A DNA stretch of 64,000 nt. Source: a virus. The position numbers were made by a program, and so were the translations under genes. The first letter of the stretch is position 1. Each line of letters starts with the position of its first letter. Positions 32 through 41,230 of this stretch are shown piece by piece. The DNA is taken from IMG/VR virus record IMGVR_UViG_3300045131_002929, positions 64,001 through 128,000 of that record, one strand, 5' to 3'. The notes under the pieces were generated by a model. The model was not told where the DNA came from. It did not search any database and saw only the letters and a list, made by a program, of their open reading frames with translations.

Positions 32-3000
32 ATGAACATGCACCCGGCAGGTCTGGCCGAGATCCTCGGCCCTATGTTCGCCCAGGCCATGGGCCGGCTA
101 GGCGGCGGCGGCGGCTATGCGCCAGGCATGTTCGGCACAAGCCTGGCCGGCGCCGCCGCGGACCTGCTGGCGCCGGGCAATCCTGCGTTCCAGATGATAG
201 CCCAAATGTACGGGCCCGAGATACAGAAGTCGATATTCGGCGAGAACATGATGGCCGGGTACGGCGGACCGGGCTCCACATGGAACGTCGCCACGCGGCA
301 CATGGAGCTCGACAAGTACCGCCTGAACATGACGCTGAACCGCTCGTCCAGGGAGCAGATCGAGAGCTACAACCAGCAGCAGTACGAAAAGGCTATGATG
401 GGGAAGTACGCCACCCAGGCCGACTGGGAGCGTAACAAGTCCACGGTTCTAGCCGGCAGGGGATCCGACCCGCACTACGGGGCCATAAACGTCATGACGG
501 CCATGGGCGGCTACTCCGGCATAGGCATCGGGATCCAGAACGCGGCCCACGCCTTCGGCTACCGCTACGGGCCAGGCAGGGGCCAGCGCGTCACGAACGC
601 GGCCGCGGAGTCGGACATGGTCGCGCTGACAAACAGCCTGCTGGACGACGCCTTGAACCGCGGCGCCGACTACGGCTCGCTCAACGGACGGGAGATAGGC
701 GACGTCGCGGCCGACCTGCTGCTGTACGGGCCGGGCCGTAGAATGTCCGGCAAGCGCAGGCTATCCTCTGAGGACTCCGACCGGCTCGGCGAGCTGCGCG
801 GCCGCAGGCGGCTGAGCAAGACCGAAAGCGCGGAGAAGCGTGAGATCGAGGAGCGCGAGGCCTTCAACGAGGAGTACAACGCCTTCGGCAATCCGCTGAT
901 CGGACCGATGAGCATCGGCGACGCGAAGACGCGGATACAGCGGACCTCGCGCGAGCTATCCTCGCTGAAGGATCTGCTCGGCAAGGACGTCAACGGGATA
1001 ATAGCCCAGCTCAAAGACACCTTCGGCACCGAGACCACCAGCCTTTACGGCATTGAGCGGACCGGCAAGGCCTTCAACAGGCTGCGCTTCATGGGCGAGG
1101 CCGCGGGGCTCGACCCGAAGACCATGCTGCCGATCGCGCAGGGCATGGCGGCGCTCACCAAACAGCTCACCGGCACAAGCGCGGGCGCGCTCGCGTCGTC
1201 GCAGCTCGCCGGCGCATTGATGGCTAGCGTGCCGCGCAACCTGCCCGGCGTCAACCTGGAAGAACTCAACCAGACCATCGCCTTGAAGACGGTGGGCGCC
1301 AACGAAAGCGACTACGCGCGGACCATAGGCGCCGGCATAGTCGCCGCCGGCCGCAAAGGCGGGACCCGCGGAGTCGCCGAGTTCAAACGCAAACTCGCGG
1401 CCCGGATGGCTGAGGGGGCCACCCCGTCCATGAAAGATGTGGCGGCTCTAGCCGGCGTAGAGGAGAACCAGATAGTGTTCGGCCGCGACGCCAAGGCCGT
1501 GCGCGACCTCGTGGCGGAAGACCCTTTCGCGGGCCAGATGACGATGGCCTACAACGGCAACCAGATCATGAACGAGCGGCGCGGGATACTGCGCAGCTCC
1601 CTGGGGTCGGCCTACAAGGACGGAATGGAGAAGCTGCAGACGCGCGAGCTGGAGAAAAAGCTGATGGCCAAGGGCGTCCCGCTGCTCTCGCTCGGCGTCA
1701 TAAACAGAGGGTACGAGGCGCTGGCCCGCAGATGGGGCGTCCCGGGCGCCAATCCGGACGACCAGCTGGCCGGGATAATAGGCGCGGCCGGTCCGGCCGG
1801 CGCGGCCCTGATGGAGAGCGAGCGGAAGCGCGCGGTGGCCGACAAATACGCGCTTGCCGGCGGCGGCGCGCTGGGCATGCTCAAAGAGCTAGGCCCCGCA
1901 GGCATTTTCAACAGAAGCGCCACTGAAGCCCTGCGCTCCTTCGGCGGGGTGCTGGGCAAAGAGGCCGCGAGCGCCGCTCGCGGCGACCTTGAAGGCGGCG
2001 ACAAAGCTGTGCTGGAGCAGGAATACAAGACCATGGCCACCATGCGCGATTCGATGGCGGCCGGCGGCAGCCTGCGCAATTTCATAGACACCGGCGATTT
2101 CAGCCGGGCCGCGCCTACACGCCCGGCGCGTGGCGGCGACAGCCAGGCCGGCCGGCAGGCCGAATACATGCTGGCCGCCGCCCAGTCGAAGGCCACGGCC
2201 GCGCCAGGCCCGGCCGCCGCCGCCTCGGTGGCCGCCCTGGCCAAATACAAGAAGCTGCTGGCCGCGAACGGTGGCGACGGCTCTAAAGTTTTGAACATGC
2301 TCGGCGATTCGGACCATAAGCTCGTGACCGCAGCCATAGCCGCGGAGGTGGAGCTCGAGCGCGACGTCTTCGCATCGCCCGGCAAGACTACCGAGGCGGA
2401 GGCTACCGCCTACTTGACAGCCTTGCGGGACCGGATGCCGGACTTGAGTACCGAAGAAAAGAAACTGATCGCCGACATGCGGGTCGATCTTAAGACCGGC
2501 ACGACGTTCGCGGAAGCGCAGGCGGCCGCGCAGGCGGCCAGTCCTAGCGCTGCCTCATCTCTGGCCGGCAAGTCGGCCGCTTTCGCTAGGACCATCCGGG
2601 CTTTGAACACGGCCCCGCCGCCTGTGAAGTCTACGACGGAGTCGGCGCTGGACGACTGGATGTCGAGCAGAAGCGGCCTTTCCAACCTCGCGCGGACGTC
2701 GCTGGCCGCCGAGGATTCCGACTGGAACGCCAAGCTGGACGCGCTTGAGAGCGCCGCCGACCCGGCGGACAAGGGCGTCGTGCGGGCCATGCGCGACGCA
2801 GTGGCCAACCGAAGACCCGACGAGTCTATAAACGAGACGATTGACGGGGCTTACTTTCTTACGCGGACAGGTCGGCCGATACTCGATAACTTCAAAAAGC
2901 TGAACGACTCGCTCAGGGCGGCCGGCAAAGTGGACTTCGACGCTTCGAGCATAGCGCCCAACCCCTACTTGGCGGCCGAAACGAAAGAAGCCGAAAAAAA

Positions 3001-4318
3001 ACTGGATCGCATAGTCAAGTCCGCGGGCGGCTCGGCGGAAGGGCATGCCGCCGCCCAGTCCATGCTGCTCGACATCCGAGGCGGAGCTAGCGCGAACGCG
3101 GCCTTCCGCCGACTGGCCGGAGTACAACGCGAGGCCCTGGCGGACACGGAGCGGCAGCTCGGCGGCAAGGGGTTTCTGTTCCAAGGCGGCGACGAGCCTT
3201 TCATAGGCATGACGCCTGAGGAGCTGGACGAACTGGGCGCCGCGGCCGCGGCGGGCAACGCGGACGCCCAGCAATTGAAAGACTATGTCGAAGCGCGCCT
3301 TAGCGTGCGCGGCGGCCTGGACAAGATGAATCTGTCGCGTGGATCCATGCAGAAACTGCGTGCGGACACGCGGGCGGCGTACGCCCGCAAAGCCGGAGCC
3401 TACGGCGCGGCGGCCAACCGCGACATAAGGGCGCGGGTGGCGACCAAGATGCTCGGCGACGCGGAGGCCGGCACGGACATAGGCGGCCAGCGCTTCGTCA
3501 ACATGTCAAGCGACAAGTCATCATACCTGGAGGCCGTCAACTCGCTGAGCTCGGGCAACAAAGGCAAACGCAGAAACAGACTAGGTCAGCTGGAAGACAT
3601 AACCTGGCGCACCTTCGGGCCGGGCAACACCATAAAGACCCACACCGCCGCCGAGCTCGAGCCGGAGATGCGCAGGCAGGTGGCCGAGGCCATAAGCGGC
3701 GAGGCCTACTTCAGATCAGGGCTGGATTCCGACACCGAGTTCAAAAAACCGGGCGACATGACCTACGACGCGCGCGAGGCCGCCTCGAAGCTGGCCTACG
3801 AGGATATAATGGGCAACGCCTCGTACGAATCCATGCGGGCCCAGGGCCGCGACACGGCCAAAGGCGGCGAGCAGGCGATCAAAGGCGACGCCACGGGCGA
3901 CATATTCAACGGCGCCAAGGGCGACGAGTACAGGACTAAGATAGAGAAGGCCCAGGCGGCCGGCAAATGGGAGGAGGTGTCCAGTCTAATGCTGGAGGCC
4001 CAGGCCAAAGGCGCGCTGGGCGGCGGGGAGTTCCTTACGGCCGACCAGATTAAAGAAGAAGAGCAAAAGATCAAAGTGGCCGACGACACGCTTAGGCGCA
4101 GCTCCGCGCCAGACGCCGCGCGCAAAGCAGCGCAGAACGAGAAGAGCAAGGCCAAGGAGAAGCTGCAGCAGAACCAAGAGGCGCAGGACAAGTTCAAATC
4201 GGCGGCCAAGGAGATCGGCGACGCCAACAAGATGAGCCTGGAGCGCATGGTGCAGAAATTGGTGGAATACGTCAGCAAATTCATGACCGACGGGATGCCC
4301 GTGAAGCCCGCCCCTTGA
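32..4318 (+). CDS. Probable tail tape-measure-like protein (1428 aa)
   Basis: Very long Ala/Gly-rich, helical-looking ORF directly upstream of baseplate genes; no enzymatic motif recognised. Confidence 0.55.
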   Translation: MNMHPAGLAEILGPMFAQAMGRLGGGGGYAPGMFGTSLAGAAADLLAPGNPAFQMIAQMYGPEIQKSIFGENMMAGYGGPGSTWNVATRHMELDKYRLNMTLNRSSREQIESYNQQQYEKAMMGKYATQADWERNKSTVLAGRGSDPHYGAINVMTAMGGYSGIGIGIQNAAHAFGYRYGPGRGQRVTNAAAESDMVALTNSLLDDALNRGADYGSLNGREIGDVAADLLLYGPGRRMSGKRRLSSEDSDRLGELRGRRRLSKTESAEKREIEEREAFNEEYNAFGNPLIGPMSIGDAKTRIQRTSRELSSLKDLLGKDVNGIIAQLKDTFGTETTSLYGIERTGKAFNRLRFMGEAAGLDPKTMLPIAQGMAALTKQLTGTSAGALASSQLAGALMASVPRNLPGVNLEELNQTIALKTVGANESDYARTIGAGIVAAGRKGGTRGVAEFKRKLAARMAEGATPSMKDVAALAGVEENQIVFGRDAKAVRDLVAEDPFAGQMTMAYNGNQIMNERRGILRSSLGSAYKDGMEKLQTRELEKKLMAKGVPLLSLGVINRGYEALARRWGVPGANPDDQLAGIIGAAGPAGAALMESERKRAVADKYALAGGGALGMLKELGPAGIFNRSATEALRSFGGVLGKEAASAARGDLEGGDKAVLEQEYKTMATMRDSMAAGGSLRNFIDTGDFSRAAPTRPARGGDSQAGRQAEYMLAAAQSKATAAPGPAAAASVAALAKYKKLLAANGGDGSKVLNMLGDSDHKLVTAAIAAEVELERDVFASPGKTTEAEATAYLTALRDRMPDLSTEEKKLIADMRVDLKTGTTFAEAQAAAQAASPSAASSLAGKSAAFARTIRALNTAPPPVKSTTESALDDWMSSRSGLSNLARTSLAAEDSDWNAKLDALESAADPADKGVVRAMRDAVANRRPDESINETIDGAYFLTRTGRPILDNFKKLNDSLRAAGKVDFDASSIAPNPYLAAETKEAEKKLDRIVKSAGGSAEGHAAAQSMLLDIRGGASANAAFRRLAGVQREALADTERQLGGKGFLFQGGDEPFIGMTPEELDELGAAAAAGNADAQQLKDYVEARLSVRGGLDKMNLSRGSMQKLRADTRAAYARKAGAYGAAANRDIRARVATKMLGDAEAGTDIGGQRFVNMSSDKSSYLEAVNSLSSGNKGKRRNRLGQLEDITWRTFGPGNTIKTHTAAELEPEMRRQVAEAISGEAYFRSGLDSDTEFKKPGDMTYDAREAASKLAYEDIMGNASYESMRAQGRDTAKGGEQAIKGDATGDIFNGAKGDEYRTKIEKAQAAGKWEEVSSLMLEAQAKGALGGGEFLTADQIKEEEQKIKVADDTLRRSSAPDAARKAAQNEKSKAKEKLQQNQEAQDKFKSAAKEIGDANKMSLERMVQKLVEYVSKFMTDGMPVKPAP

Positions 4319-36810: not shown

Positions 36811-37794
36811 GTGAACATTTCGATGTGGCGAAGCGGATCGAGTCCGCTGACAGGGCCGAGGATAGCGATCGACACGGAGACGGAGCTGATCGTCGACCAC
36901 AGGACGCCGCCGCTGGTCCTGATGCAGGTGTACAGCGGCGGGGACACGGTGCACCTGGTCAAGTGGCAGGACGCCAAGGAGTACCTGGACAGGCTGTCGG
37001 AGGCCTGCCCAAAGTCCAGGGTCGTGTTCCACAACGCGCCTTTCGACATCGCCGTGCTGGACGGCCACCAGTGGCTGGAGACGGGCGTGGAGGACGGCCG
37101 CATCGGCGACACGATGCTCAGGTTCGCGCTGTGGAAGCTCGCCACCATGGGCGACTACGTCGCTTTGAACCTGGCGACCGCGGCAAGGGACGTGATCGGC
37201 ATGCCGCTGAACAAATCCGAGGACATCCGACTCACGTTCAGCAGGGACATGATCGAGCCGGACGCCGCCCATAAGGAGTATGCCGCCGCCGACGTCATCG
37301 CCACCTGGCGGATCGACGAGGCGATCCCGAGGAGCGGGACGCAGACGGAGGAGACGCAGGTGAAGGCGGCCATGGCGCTCTACGACATCTCCAGGACGGG
37401 CTTGGCCGTGGACGAGCAGCGAAGGGCCAAGCTGGAGGCCAGGTTCACCAGAAAAGTCGAAGAGACGCTGGAGATCCTGGACGCCAACGGGTACGTGCCC
37501 GGCAAGACCGGCAACAAGGCGGCGCTGCAGACGGCCCTGAAACTGATCGAGACCATGTACGGGATAAAGCTGCCGCGCACGGAGAAGAAGGGCGAGATAA
37601 GCGTGTCGAAGGAGGCCATGGCCGAGATGTCGGAGGACATCCCGTTCCTGTCAGCGCTGAAGGAGCACGACCATTACAACAAGATCCTGTCAACGTACCT
37701 GCAGAAGGGCGTGGCAGGCGTGGACGGCCGCGTCCACACGCGCTTCAACACCCTGATAAAAACAGGGCGCACGTCGAGCTCAAAACCAAACCTT
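36811..37794 (+). CDS. polA: Family A DNA polymerase exon 1 (3'-5' exonuclease and thumb); join 36811..37794,38790..39302,39574..39888, about 603 aa
   Basis: DTET, HNAPFD, YAAAD exonuclease motifs; TGRTSSSKPNL joins QQLPR of exon 2. Confidence 0.9.
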
Positions 37795-37925
37795 TTACTG
37801 CTCAACGAGTTACAACTCGCTGCATAATGTTGGAGGTTGTAAAACCCTTTGAATTGCTGGGATATCCTTAGGTCAACACACCACAGCGTGGCCGGCGACG
37901 GCGGGCGCGAAGGTTTGAGAAGAGG

Positions 37926-37954
37926 TTGACAAAAATACCTAAAAGGTATATAAT
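37926..37954 (+). promoter_or_regulatory. Consensus sigma-70 promoter inside intron 1, driving the endonuclease gene
   Basis: TTGACA-17 nt-TATAAT, 48 nt upstream of the ATG at 38003. Confidence 0.85.
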
Positions 37955-38002
37955 AGATGTTAGGTATTAACAGGGGACAATCAGCAGGTAAGGGACTATG
38001 GT

Positions 38003-38641
38003 ATGCAAGCAGACTCTCTGATAAGACTCGCGTTGAACGCTAGACTAGGCGACGGTTGTTTCTGGAAGCACCCTGAATGCGTGAACTACAAACTCGTATT
38101 CACAGGTACGAATAGAGACTGGATCGCCTATAAAGGAAGAATGTTCGACAGGGAACCGAAGCTAGCGAGGAAAGCCGGATCGACTAGAGAAGGTGTATTC
38201 AAGAACTCTAAAGATTTGTGGAGCGTGACCACCCTGGTGGACCCGTTGTTCACCGAGTATAAGCACAAATCTATAGGAGAATGCTTCGACGAGGTTCTTA
38301 AAATCGACTTCTACCACTGGTTTTTAGACGACGGGTCGGTCATAGAGAGGCGTGATTCATTCAAAGGGCGCCGCATGAACTACAGATACATCCTGTATCT
38401 AGGCAGCCTGTTGAGTGGTGACGCCTCCGACGAGGGCAGCTTCTTCGAAATGGTCGATCGAGTTTTCAAAGACACGCTGGCAGGCGCGAACCATGGAACG
38501 ATCTCGCAGAACGGGTGCTCTAAGAACCCATGTAACGACAGGGCGTGGCAGATACCAGTCTGCATCGGACGCGAGCTCGCGATAGGGGCAGGCCGTCTAG
38601 GAGTCGAGGGATTCGAGAGAAAACTCAGATACAACCCATAG
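38003..38641 (+). CDS. Intron-encoded LAGLIDADG homing endonuclease (two-motif type)
   Basis: 'LNARLGDGCF' and 'HWFLDDGS' motifs; lies between the Q and R elements of the intron; low GC. Confidence 0.85.
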   Translation: MQADSLIRLALNARLGDGCFWKHPECVNYKLVFTGTNRDWIAYKGRMFDREPKLARKAGSTREGVFKNSKDLWSVTTLVDPLFTEYKHKSIGECFDEVLKIDFYHWFLDDGSVIERRDSFKGRRMNYRYILYLGSLLSGDASDEGSFFEMVDRVFKDTLAGANHGTISQNGCSKNPCNDRAWQIPVCIGRELAIGAGRLGVEGFERKLRYNP

Positions 38642-38789
38642 TTCAAACTTCAGAGACCATCCCGCAAGGGAGTAGGCGACCCAGGGTGAAGGGCGTCGAA
38701 GCAGAGGGGCGGTTCGATCCCGCATGATATGGTCCGCTCACCATGGCGACATGGTGAAAGACGCCTGACCCGGGCGTCTCAACAAAAGG

Positions 38790-39302
38790 CAACAGCTACC
38801 AAGGGCCGACGGCATTCGAGGGATGTACATCCCGGCCGACGGTCACGTGTTCTCGGCCACGGACTACGCGCAGCTGGAGTTATGCGCGCTGGCGCAGCAC
38901 TGCAAGACGACCTACGGTAAGTCGAAACTGGCCGAGGTCATCAACGACGGCACGGACGTCCACAAGTTCCTAGCGTCCAAGATATACAACATCGACGTCG
39001 GGCAGGTTACGAAAGATCAGAGGCAACTGGCTAAGGCAGCCTCATTCGGTCTACCTGGCGGATTAGCCGCCCGGACATTCGTGACGTACGCCAAGGGGTA
39101 CGGTGTGGACATCGACGAGCCGAGGGCTCAGGAGGTCAAGGCCATCTGGCTTAAAGCTTTCCCTGAGATGGAGGAGCACCTAAAGCCGATCAGCGTGGAG
39201 GACGACTACGGCAGGCCGTGTTTCACGGCGGTGACGCTGACAGGGAGGAAACGAAGCAACGCCACGTACTGCGAGGCTTGCAACTACGTCTTCCAAGGCC
39301 TT
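38790..39302 (+). CDS. polA: DNA polymerase A exon 2
   Basis: Motif A DYAQLEL, 'DVH', motif B RQLAKAASFG, ends NYVFQGL. Confidence 0.92.
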
Positions 39303-39573
39303 AAACTAGCTGCGTGAGGCCTATAAACGGGGTGAATTCGAAGGAAGCCGACTTGTCTATACCAGGAACACTGGTACGGTAACTTCGAGCCAAACCCCCA
39401 TGGCGACATGGGGGAAGCGTGTAACGACTAGGTTCCCGAGTCTCACTGAGACGGTAATGGAGCCCAAGAGCGCCCTGGACCCTTAATAAGGGTTGTGACA
39501 TAGTCTAAACTGACGCGAAGACTGGTGTTGCGTCAGAAGCGCCGGATAAAGAGCCGGCGCGGTAATAACATTG
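39303..39573 (+). ncRNA. Group I intron 2 in polA (271 nt, no ORF)
   Basis: P1 AGGCCUU/GAGGCCU with U.G pair; P10 GCUGC/GCAGC; core GUGAAUUCGAAGGAA, AACUUCGAGCCAA, GUAACGACUA, GACAUAGUCU; terminal G; splicing restores FQGLAADGAK. Confidence 0.92.
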
Positions 39574-39888
39574 GCAGCGGACGGAGCGAAGCTCGCCCTC
39601 TGGGAGCTCCGCAAAAAAGGGTTGCGAATTACAAATTTTATTCATGATGAAGTACTTGCAGAGCTACCCGAAGGCAGCATAGACGATCTCAACCAGGAGG
39701 TGCACGACATAGAGCGTACGATGATCGACGCGATGCGGCAGGTACTGCCCGACATCGACGTGAAGGCCGAATCGGCCTTGATGGACCGCTGGTACAAGGC
39801 GGATGGCATGAGGGACTCGGCAGGGCGGCTCGTCGTCATTACCGAGGCTATGATCGAGGCCGAGCAGGCCAAAAAGAAGAAAAAGTAA
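39574..39888 (+). CDS. polA: DNA polymerase A exon 3
   Basis: AADGAKLAL, motif C IHDE. Confidence 0.92.
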   Translation, partial: AADGAKLALWELRKKGLRITNFIHDEVLAELPEGSIDDLNQEVHDIERTMIDAMRQVLPDIDVKAESALMDRWYKADGMRDSAGRLVVITEAMIEAEQAKKKKK

Positions 39889-39907: not shown

Positions 39908-41230
39908 ATGGCTTACAAAAGCTCACACACGTCCAATGAGCGCGAGGAGCGCGGGAACTACATGATCAGCAGCCGGTACCCGAACCACTATTTCACAAAA
40001 CCCAACCAGCAAGGCATGAAACGCTGGGAGTTCAGGCTCTACCCGGCATACGACCAGGAGCGCGGCGAGTGGCTGCCGCAGTCGTTCCACGCGGACGGCG
40101 ATCCGGTCAACGGGATCGGCGAGTCGTTCCGCGCGTACGAGTGCGCCATGTTCCTCGGCAACAAGATGATCAGCTTCATCAGCGAGACCACTGACTACCC
40201 AGAGAAGAACAGCCCGGCGTACATGTTCGTGAAGCGGATACTCAAGTTCTTCGAGGAGGAGGGCAAGCGCCGCGTCGACCCTGAGTGGCTCAAATGGCGC
40301 GACACCTTCAAGCTGTCCGTCCCGGGCGTCTGCATGCTCACCCAAGGCCTGCTGCTGCACAACCACGAGGGGCCGGTGGCCGACAAGATGGGCAACCCCC
40401 GCGGCCCGTGCGTGATCTACCTCCCAAGGTCGGCCACGATGGACATGGAGCCCAAGCTCACGACGAAGATCCAGCAGAACAAGCCGCTCTCCGCGGAGAA
40501 CAGCCTGATCGGAGACATCACAAGCCCGGAGAAGGGCCGGATCATCGTCATCACGACCACTCCGTCCCAATCCTTCGGCAACAGGCCCGGCAAGAACACG
40601 GAGCTGTATGTCATCAACTCCGGCGCGGAGTTCCCGCTGGATCCCGACTACTGCCGCCGCAGCTACGTCCCGTGGGCGCAGCTGGTCCAGCTGCACGACG
40701 CCAAGTGGCAGATCGGGAAGCTGGTGGAGACGTTCGACGCCAAGAGCGTGGACTACGCGCTCGGCAAGGATCCGGACTACGGCAAGCTGCTGCCGGAAGG
40801 CGTGAAAGGCGCCCACTGGAACCACCCGAGCGAAGGCGCCCCGGTATCCATGTACCAGCCGCCCGCGCCGCCGGTCTACCAGCAGCCCGTGTATCAACAG
40901 CCCGCGTATCAACAGCCGCCGGCGCCGCCCGTCTACCAACAGCCGGCGTACCAACAACCAGCCCCCGCCGCCTACCAGCAGCCGGTTCCGCCCGCCGCCT
41001 ACCAGCAGCAGGCTCCCGCCGCCTACCACCCGCAGCAGCCGGTTCCGCCGGCCGCCTACCAGCAGCCGGCCTACTCGCCAAACGTGGTCGTCGACGCGGA
41101 CGGCGATGTCACGGTCATGGACGAGGGCGCGCAGCACGTGGCCCCGCCGGCGAACCCGGCCGCCAACGAGCTGCTCCGGTCCATCATGGAGGAGCGCGAG
41201 CGTCAGATGAAGGCCCAGGGCCTGAAGTAG
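39908..41230 (+). CDS. Probable ssDNA-binding/recombination protein with a Pro/Gln/Tyr-rich tail
   Basis: Position between polA and recA-like gene; AGGAG RBS; function inferred. Confidence 0.45.
   Translation: MAYKSSHTSNEREERGNYMISSRYPNHYFTKPNQQGMKRWEFRLYPAYDQERGEWLPQSFHADGDPVNGIGESFRAYECAMFLGNKMISFISETTDYPEKNSPAYMFVKRILKFFEEEGKRRVDPEWLKWRDTFKLSVPGVCMLTQGLLLHNHEGPVADKMGNPRGPCVIYLPRSATMDMEPKLTTKIQQNKPLSAENSLIGDITSPEKGRIIVITTTPSQSFGNRPGKNTELYVINSGAEFPLDPDYCRRSYVPWAQLVQLHDAKWQIGKLVETFDAKSVDYALGKDPDYGKLLPEGVKGAHWNHPSEGAPVSMYQPPAPPVYQQPVYQQPAYQQPPAPPVYQQPAYQQPAPAAYQQPVPPAAYQQQAPAAYHPQQPVPPAAYQQPAYSPNVVVDADGDVTVMDEGAQHVAPPANPAANELLRSIMEERERQMKAQGLK
40852..41075 (+). repeat. Coding repeats of YQQP(A/V/P)
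   Basis: About 10 YQQP-type units (TACCAGCAGCC variants). Confidence 0.85.

What the first reader, a model, noticed from the sequence alone, without database searches (positions are those of the whole stretch)
37795..39317. Both polA group I introns append an ssrA-like 'LAA' C-terminal degron to unspliced products
Seen in sequence: reading exon 1 into intron 1 gives ...KPNL-LLLNELQLAA* (stop 37825-37827). Reading exon 2 into intron 2 gives ...FQGL-KLAA* (stop 39315-39317). The two introns differ in sequence, yet both end the read-through peptide in LAA-COOH, and NELQLAA resembles tmRNA tags (E. coli AANDENYALAA). Established: ClpXP recognises the C-terminal LAA of the ssrA tag. Inference: the introns carry a built-in quality-control tag that sends truncated, potentially dominant-negative exonuclease/polymerase fragments from unspliced mRNA to host proteases. 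Caveat: in intron 2 the Ala-Ala codons (GCTGC) double as the P10 guide. In intron 1, P10 (TGTTG) lies after the stop, so it does not explain LAA there.
Basis: partly seen in the sequence, partly recalled or inferred. Interest (0 to 1): 0.88.

Follow-up and report, generated by a model that had tools for sequence, protein, structure and literature searches.

The report
Intron-encoded Leu-Ala-Ala tails, likely degrons
Two self-splicing introns in this phage's DNA polymerase gene make any protein translated from unspliced RNA end in Leu-Ala-Ala, the ending bacteria use to mark unfinished proteins for destruction; related phage introns carry this ending roughly a hundred times more often than chance, although the destruction itself has not been shown.

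Summary
The family A polymerase gene is split by two group I introns, and reading exon 1 or exon 2 into the intron gives ...LQLAA-stop and KLAA-stop.

It is not chance. I collected about 300 related introns from viral and bacterial contigs. In the viral set 13 of 138 upstream-exon read-throughs end in LAA (10 of 97 independent gene clusters). None of 1798 stops in the other two frames of the same windows does, and shuffles give 0.06%. Prophage introns in bacterial genomes replicate this: 9 of 56 end in Ala-Ala.

The Leu-Ala-Ala-stop nucleotide motif occurs only in the exon frame (13:0:0). All four Ala codons, five Leu codons and all three stops are used. Substitutions between homologous tails are synonymous, and the motif lies before, inside or after the internal guide sequence. 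So the peptide is selected, not an RNA motif. The tails fit the E. coli ClpXP pentapeptide consensus.

Caveats:
- Proteolysis is untested.
- Most introns of the family lack the tail.
- The closest ortholog of intron 1 ends in CVA.

I found no paper describing this. The scan has noted the same theme before on three other genomes.

The parts
36811..37794 (+). polA exon 1 (3'-5' exonuclease domain plus the start of the polymerase domain; ends KPNL). The start is GTG 36811, or ATG 36823 as in the called protein P0001.
   Evidence: Pfam PF01612 and PF00476; alignment to uninterrupted homologs
37789..37794 (+). P1 5' strand of intron 1 (AACCTT; the last U forms the U-G pair at the splice site)
   Evidence: Complementary to 37833-37838; fold
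37795..38789 (+). Group I intron 1 (995 nt) carrying an endonuclease-like ORF; ends in G
   Evidence: An ORF-less ortholog at the same PNL site in L323 is about 90% identical in the core. L323 scores 40.5 bits to RF00028, and relatives L084 and L245 score 94.7 and 90.2 bits.
37795..37827 (+). Read-through tail 1: ten codons ending ELQLAA, then TAA; lies in the P1 loop
   Evidence: The same ELQLAA-stop occurs in the L245 sheath-gene intron with 4 nucleotide differences, all synonymous.
37828..37838 (+). Internal guide of intron 1: P10 guide TGTTG plus P1 3' strand GAGGTT
   Evidence: Complementary to exon 2 start CAACA and exon 1 end AACCTT
37926..37954 (+). TTGACA-N17-TATAAT promoter-like site ahead of the intron ORF
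   Evidence: Read; not tested further
38003..38641 (+). Intron-borne ORF (212 aa), presumed homing endonuclease; no family match
   Evidence: No Pfam or PHROGs hit. It is absent from ortholog L323, so it is an insertion in a peripheral loop.
38790..39302 (+). polA exon 2 (QQLPRA ... FQGL)
   Evidence: PF00476
39303..39573 (+). Group I intron 2 (271 nt); ends in G
   Evidence: RF00028 at 44.4 bits, E 1.6e-9, below the gathering score of 50. Homolog in L085.
39303..39317 (+). Read-through tail 2: KLAA then TGA. The Ala codons overlap the P10 guide GCTGC, and the stop overlaps the P1 3' strand.
   Evidence: An identical KLAA-stop tail occurs in the intron of an unrelated gene in L263/L296, where the guide lies after the stop.
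39316..39322 (+). P1 3' strand of intron 2 (GAGGCCT)
   Evidence: Pairs with 39296-39302
39574..39888 (+). polA exon 3 (AADGAKLA ... motif C ... stop)

Best explanation
Both introns carry, between the 5' splice site and the ribozyme core, a short in-frame coding stretch that ends in Leu-Ala-Ala-stop. In bacteria ribosomes follow the polymerase closely. Some of them therefore read from the exon into the intron before it has folded and spliced out.

Those ribosomes terminate at the intron's stop and release a truncated polymerase fragment. The fragment is either the exonuclease domain alone or exons 1+2 without motif C. Its C-terminus mimics the ssrA tag, and the fragment is then fed to ClpXP-type host proteases.

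Shown here: the tails exist; such tails are strongly over-represented in this intron family; and selection acts on the peptide ending rather than on an RNA motif.

Inferred: recognition and degradation by ClpXP or related proteases, and a fitness cost of the untagged fragments.
For: (1) The tails and splice sites are as stated.

(2) Enrichment.
- Viral contigs: 13 of 138 tails end in LAA, 16 in xAA and 27 in xxA. Other-frame controls give 0, 2 and 59 of 1798.
- By gene cluster: 10, 12 and 20 of 97. Fisher p is about 1e-13.
- Shuffles give 0.06% LAA and 0.33% xAA.
- The in-frame LAA rate inside the same exons is 8e-4.

(3) Independent replicate in bacterial genome contigs: LAA 4 and xAA 9 of 56, against 0 and 1 of 937 controls.

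(4) The Leu-Ala-Ala-stop nucleotide motif occurs 13 times in the exon frame and never in the other two frames.

(5) There is no nucleotide consensus. GCA, GCC, GCG and GCT each occur 4-7 times at either Ala codon. Five Leu codons and all three stops are used.

(6) Homologous tails differ only synonymously.
- PLAA-stop in four capsid-gene introns (L089, L097, L172, L179): at least 8 changes, all silent or stop-to-stop, while the sequence after the stop is unalignable.
- ELQLAA in the window and in L245: 4 of 4 changes are silent.

(7) The motif sits before the guide (window intron 2, L263), after it (the PLAA lineage) or across it (L139, exon junction ADKA|GTG confirmed). One RNA role therefore cannot explain it.

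(8) Fit to the E. coli ClpXP pentapeptide consensus [LFYW]-[LAR]-L-A-A, with LVA also recognised (PMC10862746). Examples are FRLAA, LRLAA, LKLAA (window), LQLAA (window), VKLAA and KKLVA.

(9) Five of ten polA intron tails seen here end in Ala-Ala.
Against: - No degradation data exist, and the host is unknown.
- The tail is far from universal. About 90% of clusters lack it. Many introns stop immediately at the splice site or read deep into the core.
- A metagenome set chosen by the intron-1-type P2/P3 motif had 0 LAA tails among about 20 distinct introns.
- The closest ortholog of intron 1 (L323, same site, core about 90% identical) has a much diverged P1 loop whose tail ends in CVA.
- Other polA introns end in KYL, LLE, TSQ and CQF.
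- In intron 2 the Ala codons coincide with a plausible P10 guide, and in several relatives the guide overlaps Ala or Leu codons. RNA constraints therefore contribute to what is available.
- The one host tag checked (Ligilactobacillus...YAVAA) does not match its prophage intron tail (VKLAA) beyond Ala-Ala.
Confidence: 0.6

Rival explanations
1. The peptide ending is selected, but for something other than ClpXP degradation. Possibilities are fast, clean termination and ribosome release next to the guide sequence so that P1 can form, or recognition by another factor (Tsp-like, FtsH or Lon proteases, or a phage protein).
For: The stop always lies within a few nucleotides of the internal guide, where a lingering ribosome would block P1. 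Reviews stress that ribosome position at the 5' junction affects splicing (PMC3073962). C-terminal Ala in general, not only LAA, is enriched: 20 of 97 clusters against 3-5% in controls.
Against: I know of no termination effect specific to Leu-Ala-Ala. The preferred upstream residues (Leu at -3, Arg/Lys or Leu at -4, hydrophobic at -5) are those of the ClpXP consensus. Many introns of the family do well with an immediate stop and no tail.
Confidence: 0.17
2. By-product of RNA constraints. GC-rich guide, P10 and P1-extension sequences near the splice site happen to read as Ala codons, and the match to a degron has no function.
For: In intron 2, GCTGC is complementary to the first bases of exon 3. 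In L139, L170, L179 and L245 the guide overlaps tail codons. In intron 1 the tail codons take part in a P1-loop hairpin, with one compensatory change in L323. L323 lost LAA.
Against: An RNA motif should fall in all three frames, yet the split is 13:0:0. The same windows give 0 of 1798 in other frames. Third codon positions and stop identity vary freely. The position relative to the guide differs between lineages. The Leu codon and the immediately following stop are not explained by guide pairing.
Confidence: 0.15
3. Coincidence in this window: two unrelated tails that happen to end alike.
For: Only two cases in the window.
Against: About 1e-6 from the genome's own background. The pre-stated motif was then found again in independent loci at about 100 times expectation.
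Confidence: 0.03

Closest known systems
In-frame stop codon just inside bacterial and phage group I introns (T4 td and others; review PMC3073962)
   Same: A stop in the exon frame within a few codons of the 5' splice site, close to the internal guide, keeps ribosomes out of the ribozyme core.
   Different: The known feature is only the stop. Here the codons before the stop are themselves conserved and spell a hydrophobic-Ala-Ala C-terminus. The review mentions no fate for the truncated protein.
tmRNA (SsrA) tag and its recognition by ClpXP (PMC7652416; degron screen PMC10862746)
   Same: A C-terminal Leu-Ala-Ala with free carboxylate on an incomplete translation product. The upstream residues of many intron tails fit the screened consensus [LFYW]-[LAR]-L-A-A.
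   Different: The tail is encoded in cis in the mRNA and added by normal translation and termination, not by trans-translation on a stalled ribosome. There is no SspB-binding part, and the tails are only 3-10 residues long.
Cis-encoded ssrA-like tails used as switches by phages (integration-dependent immunity of mycobacteriophage BPs-type repressors; recalled from my own knowledge, and named in scan note e1-3297698)
   Same: A phage genome encodes a C-terminal ...LAA tail whose presence depends on a nucleic-acid rearrangement. There the rearrangement is integration; here it is splicing.
   Different: There the tail tunes the level of a regulator. Here it would dispose of a by-product, and removal of the tail is by RNA splicing.

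Membership tests
Group I intron (intron 2, 39303-39573) | Conserved catalytic core (P3-P9) recognisable by a covariance model | tested here: inconclusive
   RF00028 at 44.4 bits, E 1.6e-9, full-length match but below the gathering score of 50. Relatives sharing its P3 and P7 motifs are numerous.
Group I intron (intron 2) | P1 with a U-G pair at the 5' splice site, terminal G, and exon ligation restoring the reading frame | tested here: met
   AGGCCTT pairs with GAGGCCT and the intron ends in G at 39573. The joined exons give FQGL-AADG, as in uninterrupted homologs.
Group I intron (intron 1, 37795-38789) | Conserved catalytic core | tested here: met
   No direct Rfam hit, because of the 639-nt ORF. 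However, the ORF-less ortholog L323 (core about 90% identical) scores 40.5 bits, and relatives L084 and L245 score 94.7 and 90.2 bits, above the cut-off.
Group I intron (intron 1) | P1 with U-G, P10, terminal G, and in-frame exon ligation | tested here: met
   AACCTT pairs with GAGGTT and TGTTG with CAACA; G at 38789; the junction gives PNL-QQLP as in homologs.
Group I intron (both) | Self-splicing in vitro or spliced RNA in vivo | not testable with these tools
ssrA-like C-terminal ClpX degron | C-terminal Leu-Ala-Ala with free carboxylate | tested here: met
   Both tails end in LAA directly before a stop.
ssrA-like C-terminal ClpX degron | Upstream residues compatible with the screened pentapeptide consensus | tested here: met
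   LQLAA and LKLAA compared with [LFYW]-[LAR]-L-A-A. Position 1 fits. Position 2 is Gln or Lys rather than Leu, Ala or Arg (PMC10862746).
ssrA-like C-terminal ClpX degron | ClpXP-dependent instability, lost on AA to DD | not testable with these tools
   Needs reporters in clpX+ and clpX- cells.
tmRNA tag proper | Added by trans-translation from a tmRNA reading frame; contains an adaptor (SspB) site | tested here: not met
   The tail is read from the mRNA itself. No tmRNA or tRNA gene is in the window, and there is no AANDENY-like part.

The most novel reading that the evidence does not exclude
A large family of td-like group I introns of phages and prophages has repeatedly evolved, and keeps by selection, an in-frame ssrA-mimicking C-terminal degron at its 5' end. 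The family occurs in polymerase, capsid, tape-measure and sheath genes. Proteins made from not-yet-spliced mRNA are thereby destroyed by the host's own quality-control proteases. This would be a previously undescribed way in which a selfish intron lowers its cost to its carrier.
Probability: 0.55. Interest if true: 0.85.

Novelty: new variant of a known kind. Interest (0 to 1): 0.8.

Why it matters
Coupled transcription and translation is regarded as the main obstacle to introns in bacterial protein genes. The accepted remedy is only a stop codon that keeps ribosomes out of the ribozyme.

A built-in degron would add a second layer: disposal of the truncated, possibly assembly-poisoning or nuclease-active fragments. 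That would help explain how introns persist in highly expressed and essential phage genes.

It also gives a simple sequence signature (hydrophobic-Ala-Ala-stop in the exon frame next to the guide sequence) for annotating introns and predicting splice sites. It provides a natural library of short degrons from many hosts, and a directly testable link between RNA splicing kinetics and proteolysis.

Tried and rejected
- Rfam at gathering threshold found nothing in the window.
- blastn of the gene against GenBank phages found nothing.
- Exon 2 and the intron ORF gave no relatives in viral contigs.
- 80 viral polA loci found with a protein alignment held no introns at these sites. The apparent splits were in-frame insertions, plus one intein in L074.
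- Word-based protein searches found few close relatives, but these supplied L002, L003, L084 and L085.
- The automatic P1 finder was reliable only for some loci. Splice sites of the PLAA and VKLAA lineages were instead fixed from the reading frame of the downstream exon.
- My first guess for the PLAA lineage (splice after GGT) was wrong and was corrected to after GAT.
- A metagenome scan with the intron-1-type P2/P3 motif gave no LAA tails.
- Host tmRNA tags: only one of four could be read (AKNNNYSYAVAA), and it matches the prophage tail only in Ala-Ala.
- Literature searches for an intron-encoded degron found none.

Full report
**What is there.**
The window is part of a 146.6-kb IMG/VR phage record with 64% G+C. 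Positions 36811-39888 hold a family A DNA polymerase gene with a 3'-5' exonuclease domain (Pfam PF01612 and PF00476). The gene is in three pieces.

Alignment with uninterrupted homologs (P0003, P0005, P0007) shows that the pieces join exactly at two conserved motifs, PNL|QQLP and FQGL|AADG. This gives the following map:
- exon 1: 36811-37794
- intron 1: 37795-38789 (995 nt)
- exon 2: 38790-39302
- intron 2: 39303-39573 (271 nt)
- exon 3: 39574-39888

**Are they group I introns?**
- Both exons upstream of an intron end in U, and both introns end in G.
- Each intron has a P1 helix with a U-G pair (AACCTT/GAGGTT and AGGCCTT/GAGGCCT) and a P10 guide complementary to the next exon (TGTTG/CAACA and GCTGC/GCAGC).
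- Intron 2 matches Rfam RF00028 over its full length at 44.4 bits (E 1.6e-9, just under the gathering score).
- Intron 1 is not detected directly because a 212-codon ORF (38003-38641) with its own TTGACA-N17-TATAAT site sits in a peripheral loop.
- An ORF-less ortholog at the same PNL site of another phage's polA (L323) is about 90% identical in the core and scores 40.5 bits. More distant relatives (L084, L245) score 90-95 bits.

**The observation.**
Reading exon 1 on into intron 1 gives ten codons ending ELQLAA and then TAA (37825-37827). Reading exon 2 into intron 2 gives KLAA and then TGA (39315-39317). In this genome only 5 of 2541 six-frame ORFs end in LAA, and two of the five are these tails.

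**Is it more than chance? Relatives of the gene.**
The few close relatives of this polA in public data already pointed the same way.

| Locus | Site of interruption | Tail |
|---|---|---|
| L002 (A+T-rich contig) | after ANFG | 8 residues ending DLAA |
| L085 (intron-2 homolog) | four codons upstream of the window's site | QAA |
| L323 | after ANFG | ends KAA |
| L003 | – | ends KYL |
| L084 | – | ends LLE |
| L116 | – | ends TSQ |
| L365 | – | ends CQF |
| L323 (PNL site) | PNL, as intron 1 | ends CVA |

**Is it more than chance? The intron family.**
I used three short core motifs shared by the two introns and their relatives to scan viral contigs. This gave 197 distinct intron loci in many genes, including capsid, tape measure, sheath, terminase and polymerase.

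For each locus I took the longest ORF (50 codons or more) whose stop lies 70-270 nt upstream of P7. That ORF is the upstream exon read into the intron. Results for the 138 such tails, with every stop in the other two frames of the same windows as control:

| C-terminal ending | Tails (of 138) | Other-frame controls (of 1798) | Gene clusters (of 97) | Mononucleotide shuffles |
|---|---|---|---|---|
| LAA | 13 | 0 | 10 | 0.06% |
| Ala-Ala | 16 | 2 | 12 | 0.33% |
| Ala | 27 | 59 | 20 | 5.2% |

- Tail and control counts are, clusters (grouped by exon peptide), and shuffles of the local sequence in the exon frame.
- Fisher p is about 1e-13.
- LAA occurs in frame inside the same exons at 8e-4 per codon.

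An independent scan of bacterial and archaeal genome contigs (prophages in Firmicutes, Proteobacteria and others) gave LAA in 4 and Ala-Ala in 9 of 56 tails. Controls gave 0 and 1 of 937.

**Peptide or RNA?** Four results point to the peptide.
1. The nucleotide motif Leu-Ala-Ala-stop occurs 13 times in the exon frame and never in the other two frames.
2. There is no nucleotide consensus. All four Ala codons are used about equally at both positions. Five Leu codons and all three stop codons occur.
3. Homologous tails differ only at silent sites.
   - The capsid-gene lineage L089/L097/L172/L179 keeps PLAA-stop through at least eight substitutions, all synonymous or stop-to-stop, while the sequence after the stop cannot be aligned.
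   - The window's ELQLAA-stop recurs in the sheath-gene intron of L245 with four differences, all silent.
4. The motif has no fixed place in the RNA structure.
   - In window intron 2 and in L263/L296 (also KLAA) it precedes the guide.
   - In the PLAA lineage it follows the guide. There the splice site is after GAT and the guide GTCCC encodes Val-Pro; this was fixed from the frame of the downstream exon.
   - In the tape-measure lineage (VKLAA) it overlaps the guide, with the junction ADKA|GTG confirmed.

**Fit to a degron.**
A published E. coli screen of C-terminal pentapeptides found that nearly all strong degrons are ClpXP-dependent and end in Ala-Ala. [quoted passage not shown]

The intron tails read FRLAA, LRLAA, LKLAA (window intron 2), LQLAA (window intron 1 and L245), VKLAA, GKLAA, LILAA and KKLVA. 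Leu at -3 and Lys/Arg at -4 are the commonest residues.

**What speaks against it, or limits it.**
- No proteolysis has been measured and the host is unknown.
- The tail is a minority solution. Many relatives have a stop right at the splice site, and others read far into the core.
- A metagenome set chosen by the intron-1-type P2/P3 motif had no LAA tail among about 20 introns.
- The closest ortholog of intron 1 (L323) has a strongly diverged P1 loop, with one compensatory change in its hairpin, and its tail ends in CVA. In that lineage RNA structure is also at work and LAA is not fixed.
- The likeness to the tmRNA tag does not go beyond the last three residues.

**Comparison with what is known.**
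A review of intron-host relations states that most bacterial group I introns have an in-frame stop just after the 5' junction to keep ribosomes out of the core. It also states that translation of the upstream exon aids splicing. It says nothing about the fate of the truncated product (PMC3073962).

The ssrA tag and its recognition by ClpXP are textbook knowledge (PMC7652416, PMC10862746). Three full-text searches found no paper that links the two.

The scan's own notes record the same theme in three other genomes: capsid-gene introns of a crAss-like phage and of a peat phage, and a prophage intron ending in YALAA. These are unchecked AI notes. I read them only after my own counts, and they agree with those counts.

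**Verdict.**
The interpretation passes the test that its author proposed. The most likely reading (about 0.6) is a cis-encoded ssrA-like degron that marks products of unspliced mRNA for host proteases. Selection on the peptide for another purpose (about 0.17) and an RNA by-product (about 0.15) remain open. The decisive step is a reporter half-life assay with AA-to-DD controls in clpX+ and clpX- cells.

Noticed in passing
window 37926-38641: The ORF inside intron 1 (212 aa) has a textbook TTGACA-N17-TATAAT site 48 nt upstream. It matches no Pfam or PHROGs family and is absent from the orthologous intron in L323, so it is a recent insertion of an unclassified endonuclease-like gene.
   Followed up: partly
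window 38735-38748 and 39406-39419: Both introns contain the same 14-nt hairpin CCATGGCGACATGG (GCGA loop), although the introns are otherwise hard to align. It may be a shared peripheral element or a receptor/tetraloop module.
   Followed up: no
window 39908-41230: The gene just downstream of polA encodes a 440-aa protein whose C-terminal third is a run of imperfect P-A-Y-Q-Q-P repeats followed by an acidic/helical end. Its function is unknown.
   Followed up: no
L086, L087, L093, L099, L101, L103, L111, L113, L129, L142 (viral contigs): In many capsid-gene members of the intron-2 family an HNH endonuclease ORF ends right at, or reads into, the P3 strand of the ribozyme. The endonuclease C-terminus and the intron core therefore overlap.
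   Followed up: no
L323:730-3030: One phage polA carries at least two, probably three, interruptions: after PNL, after ANFG, and a further RF00028 hit at 2771-3029. L084 and L245 also carry two introns each.
   Followed up: partly
L074:3198-3682: A distant polA relative has an in-frame insertion of about 160 aa at the motif B site, before NFG, that looks like an intein (it begins Cys-Tyr-Ser and ends Ser-Gly-Asn-Ser). This is the same hot spot as the introns in L002, L003 and L323.
   Followed up: no
L316 (viral contig; homolog of the L263 gene and site): Where L263 has GG|KLAA-stop, its homolog L316 appears to read 24 codons through P3-P6 and then ends in ...SQAA-stop. The frame was not verified.
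   Followed up: no
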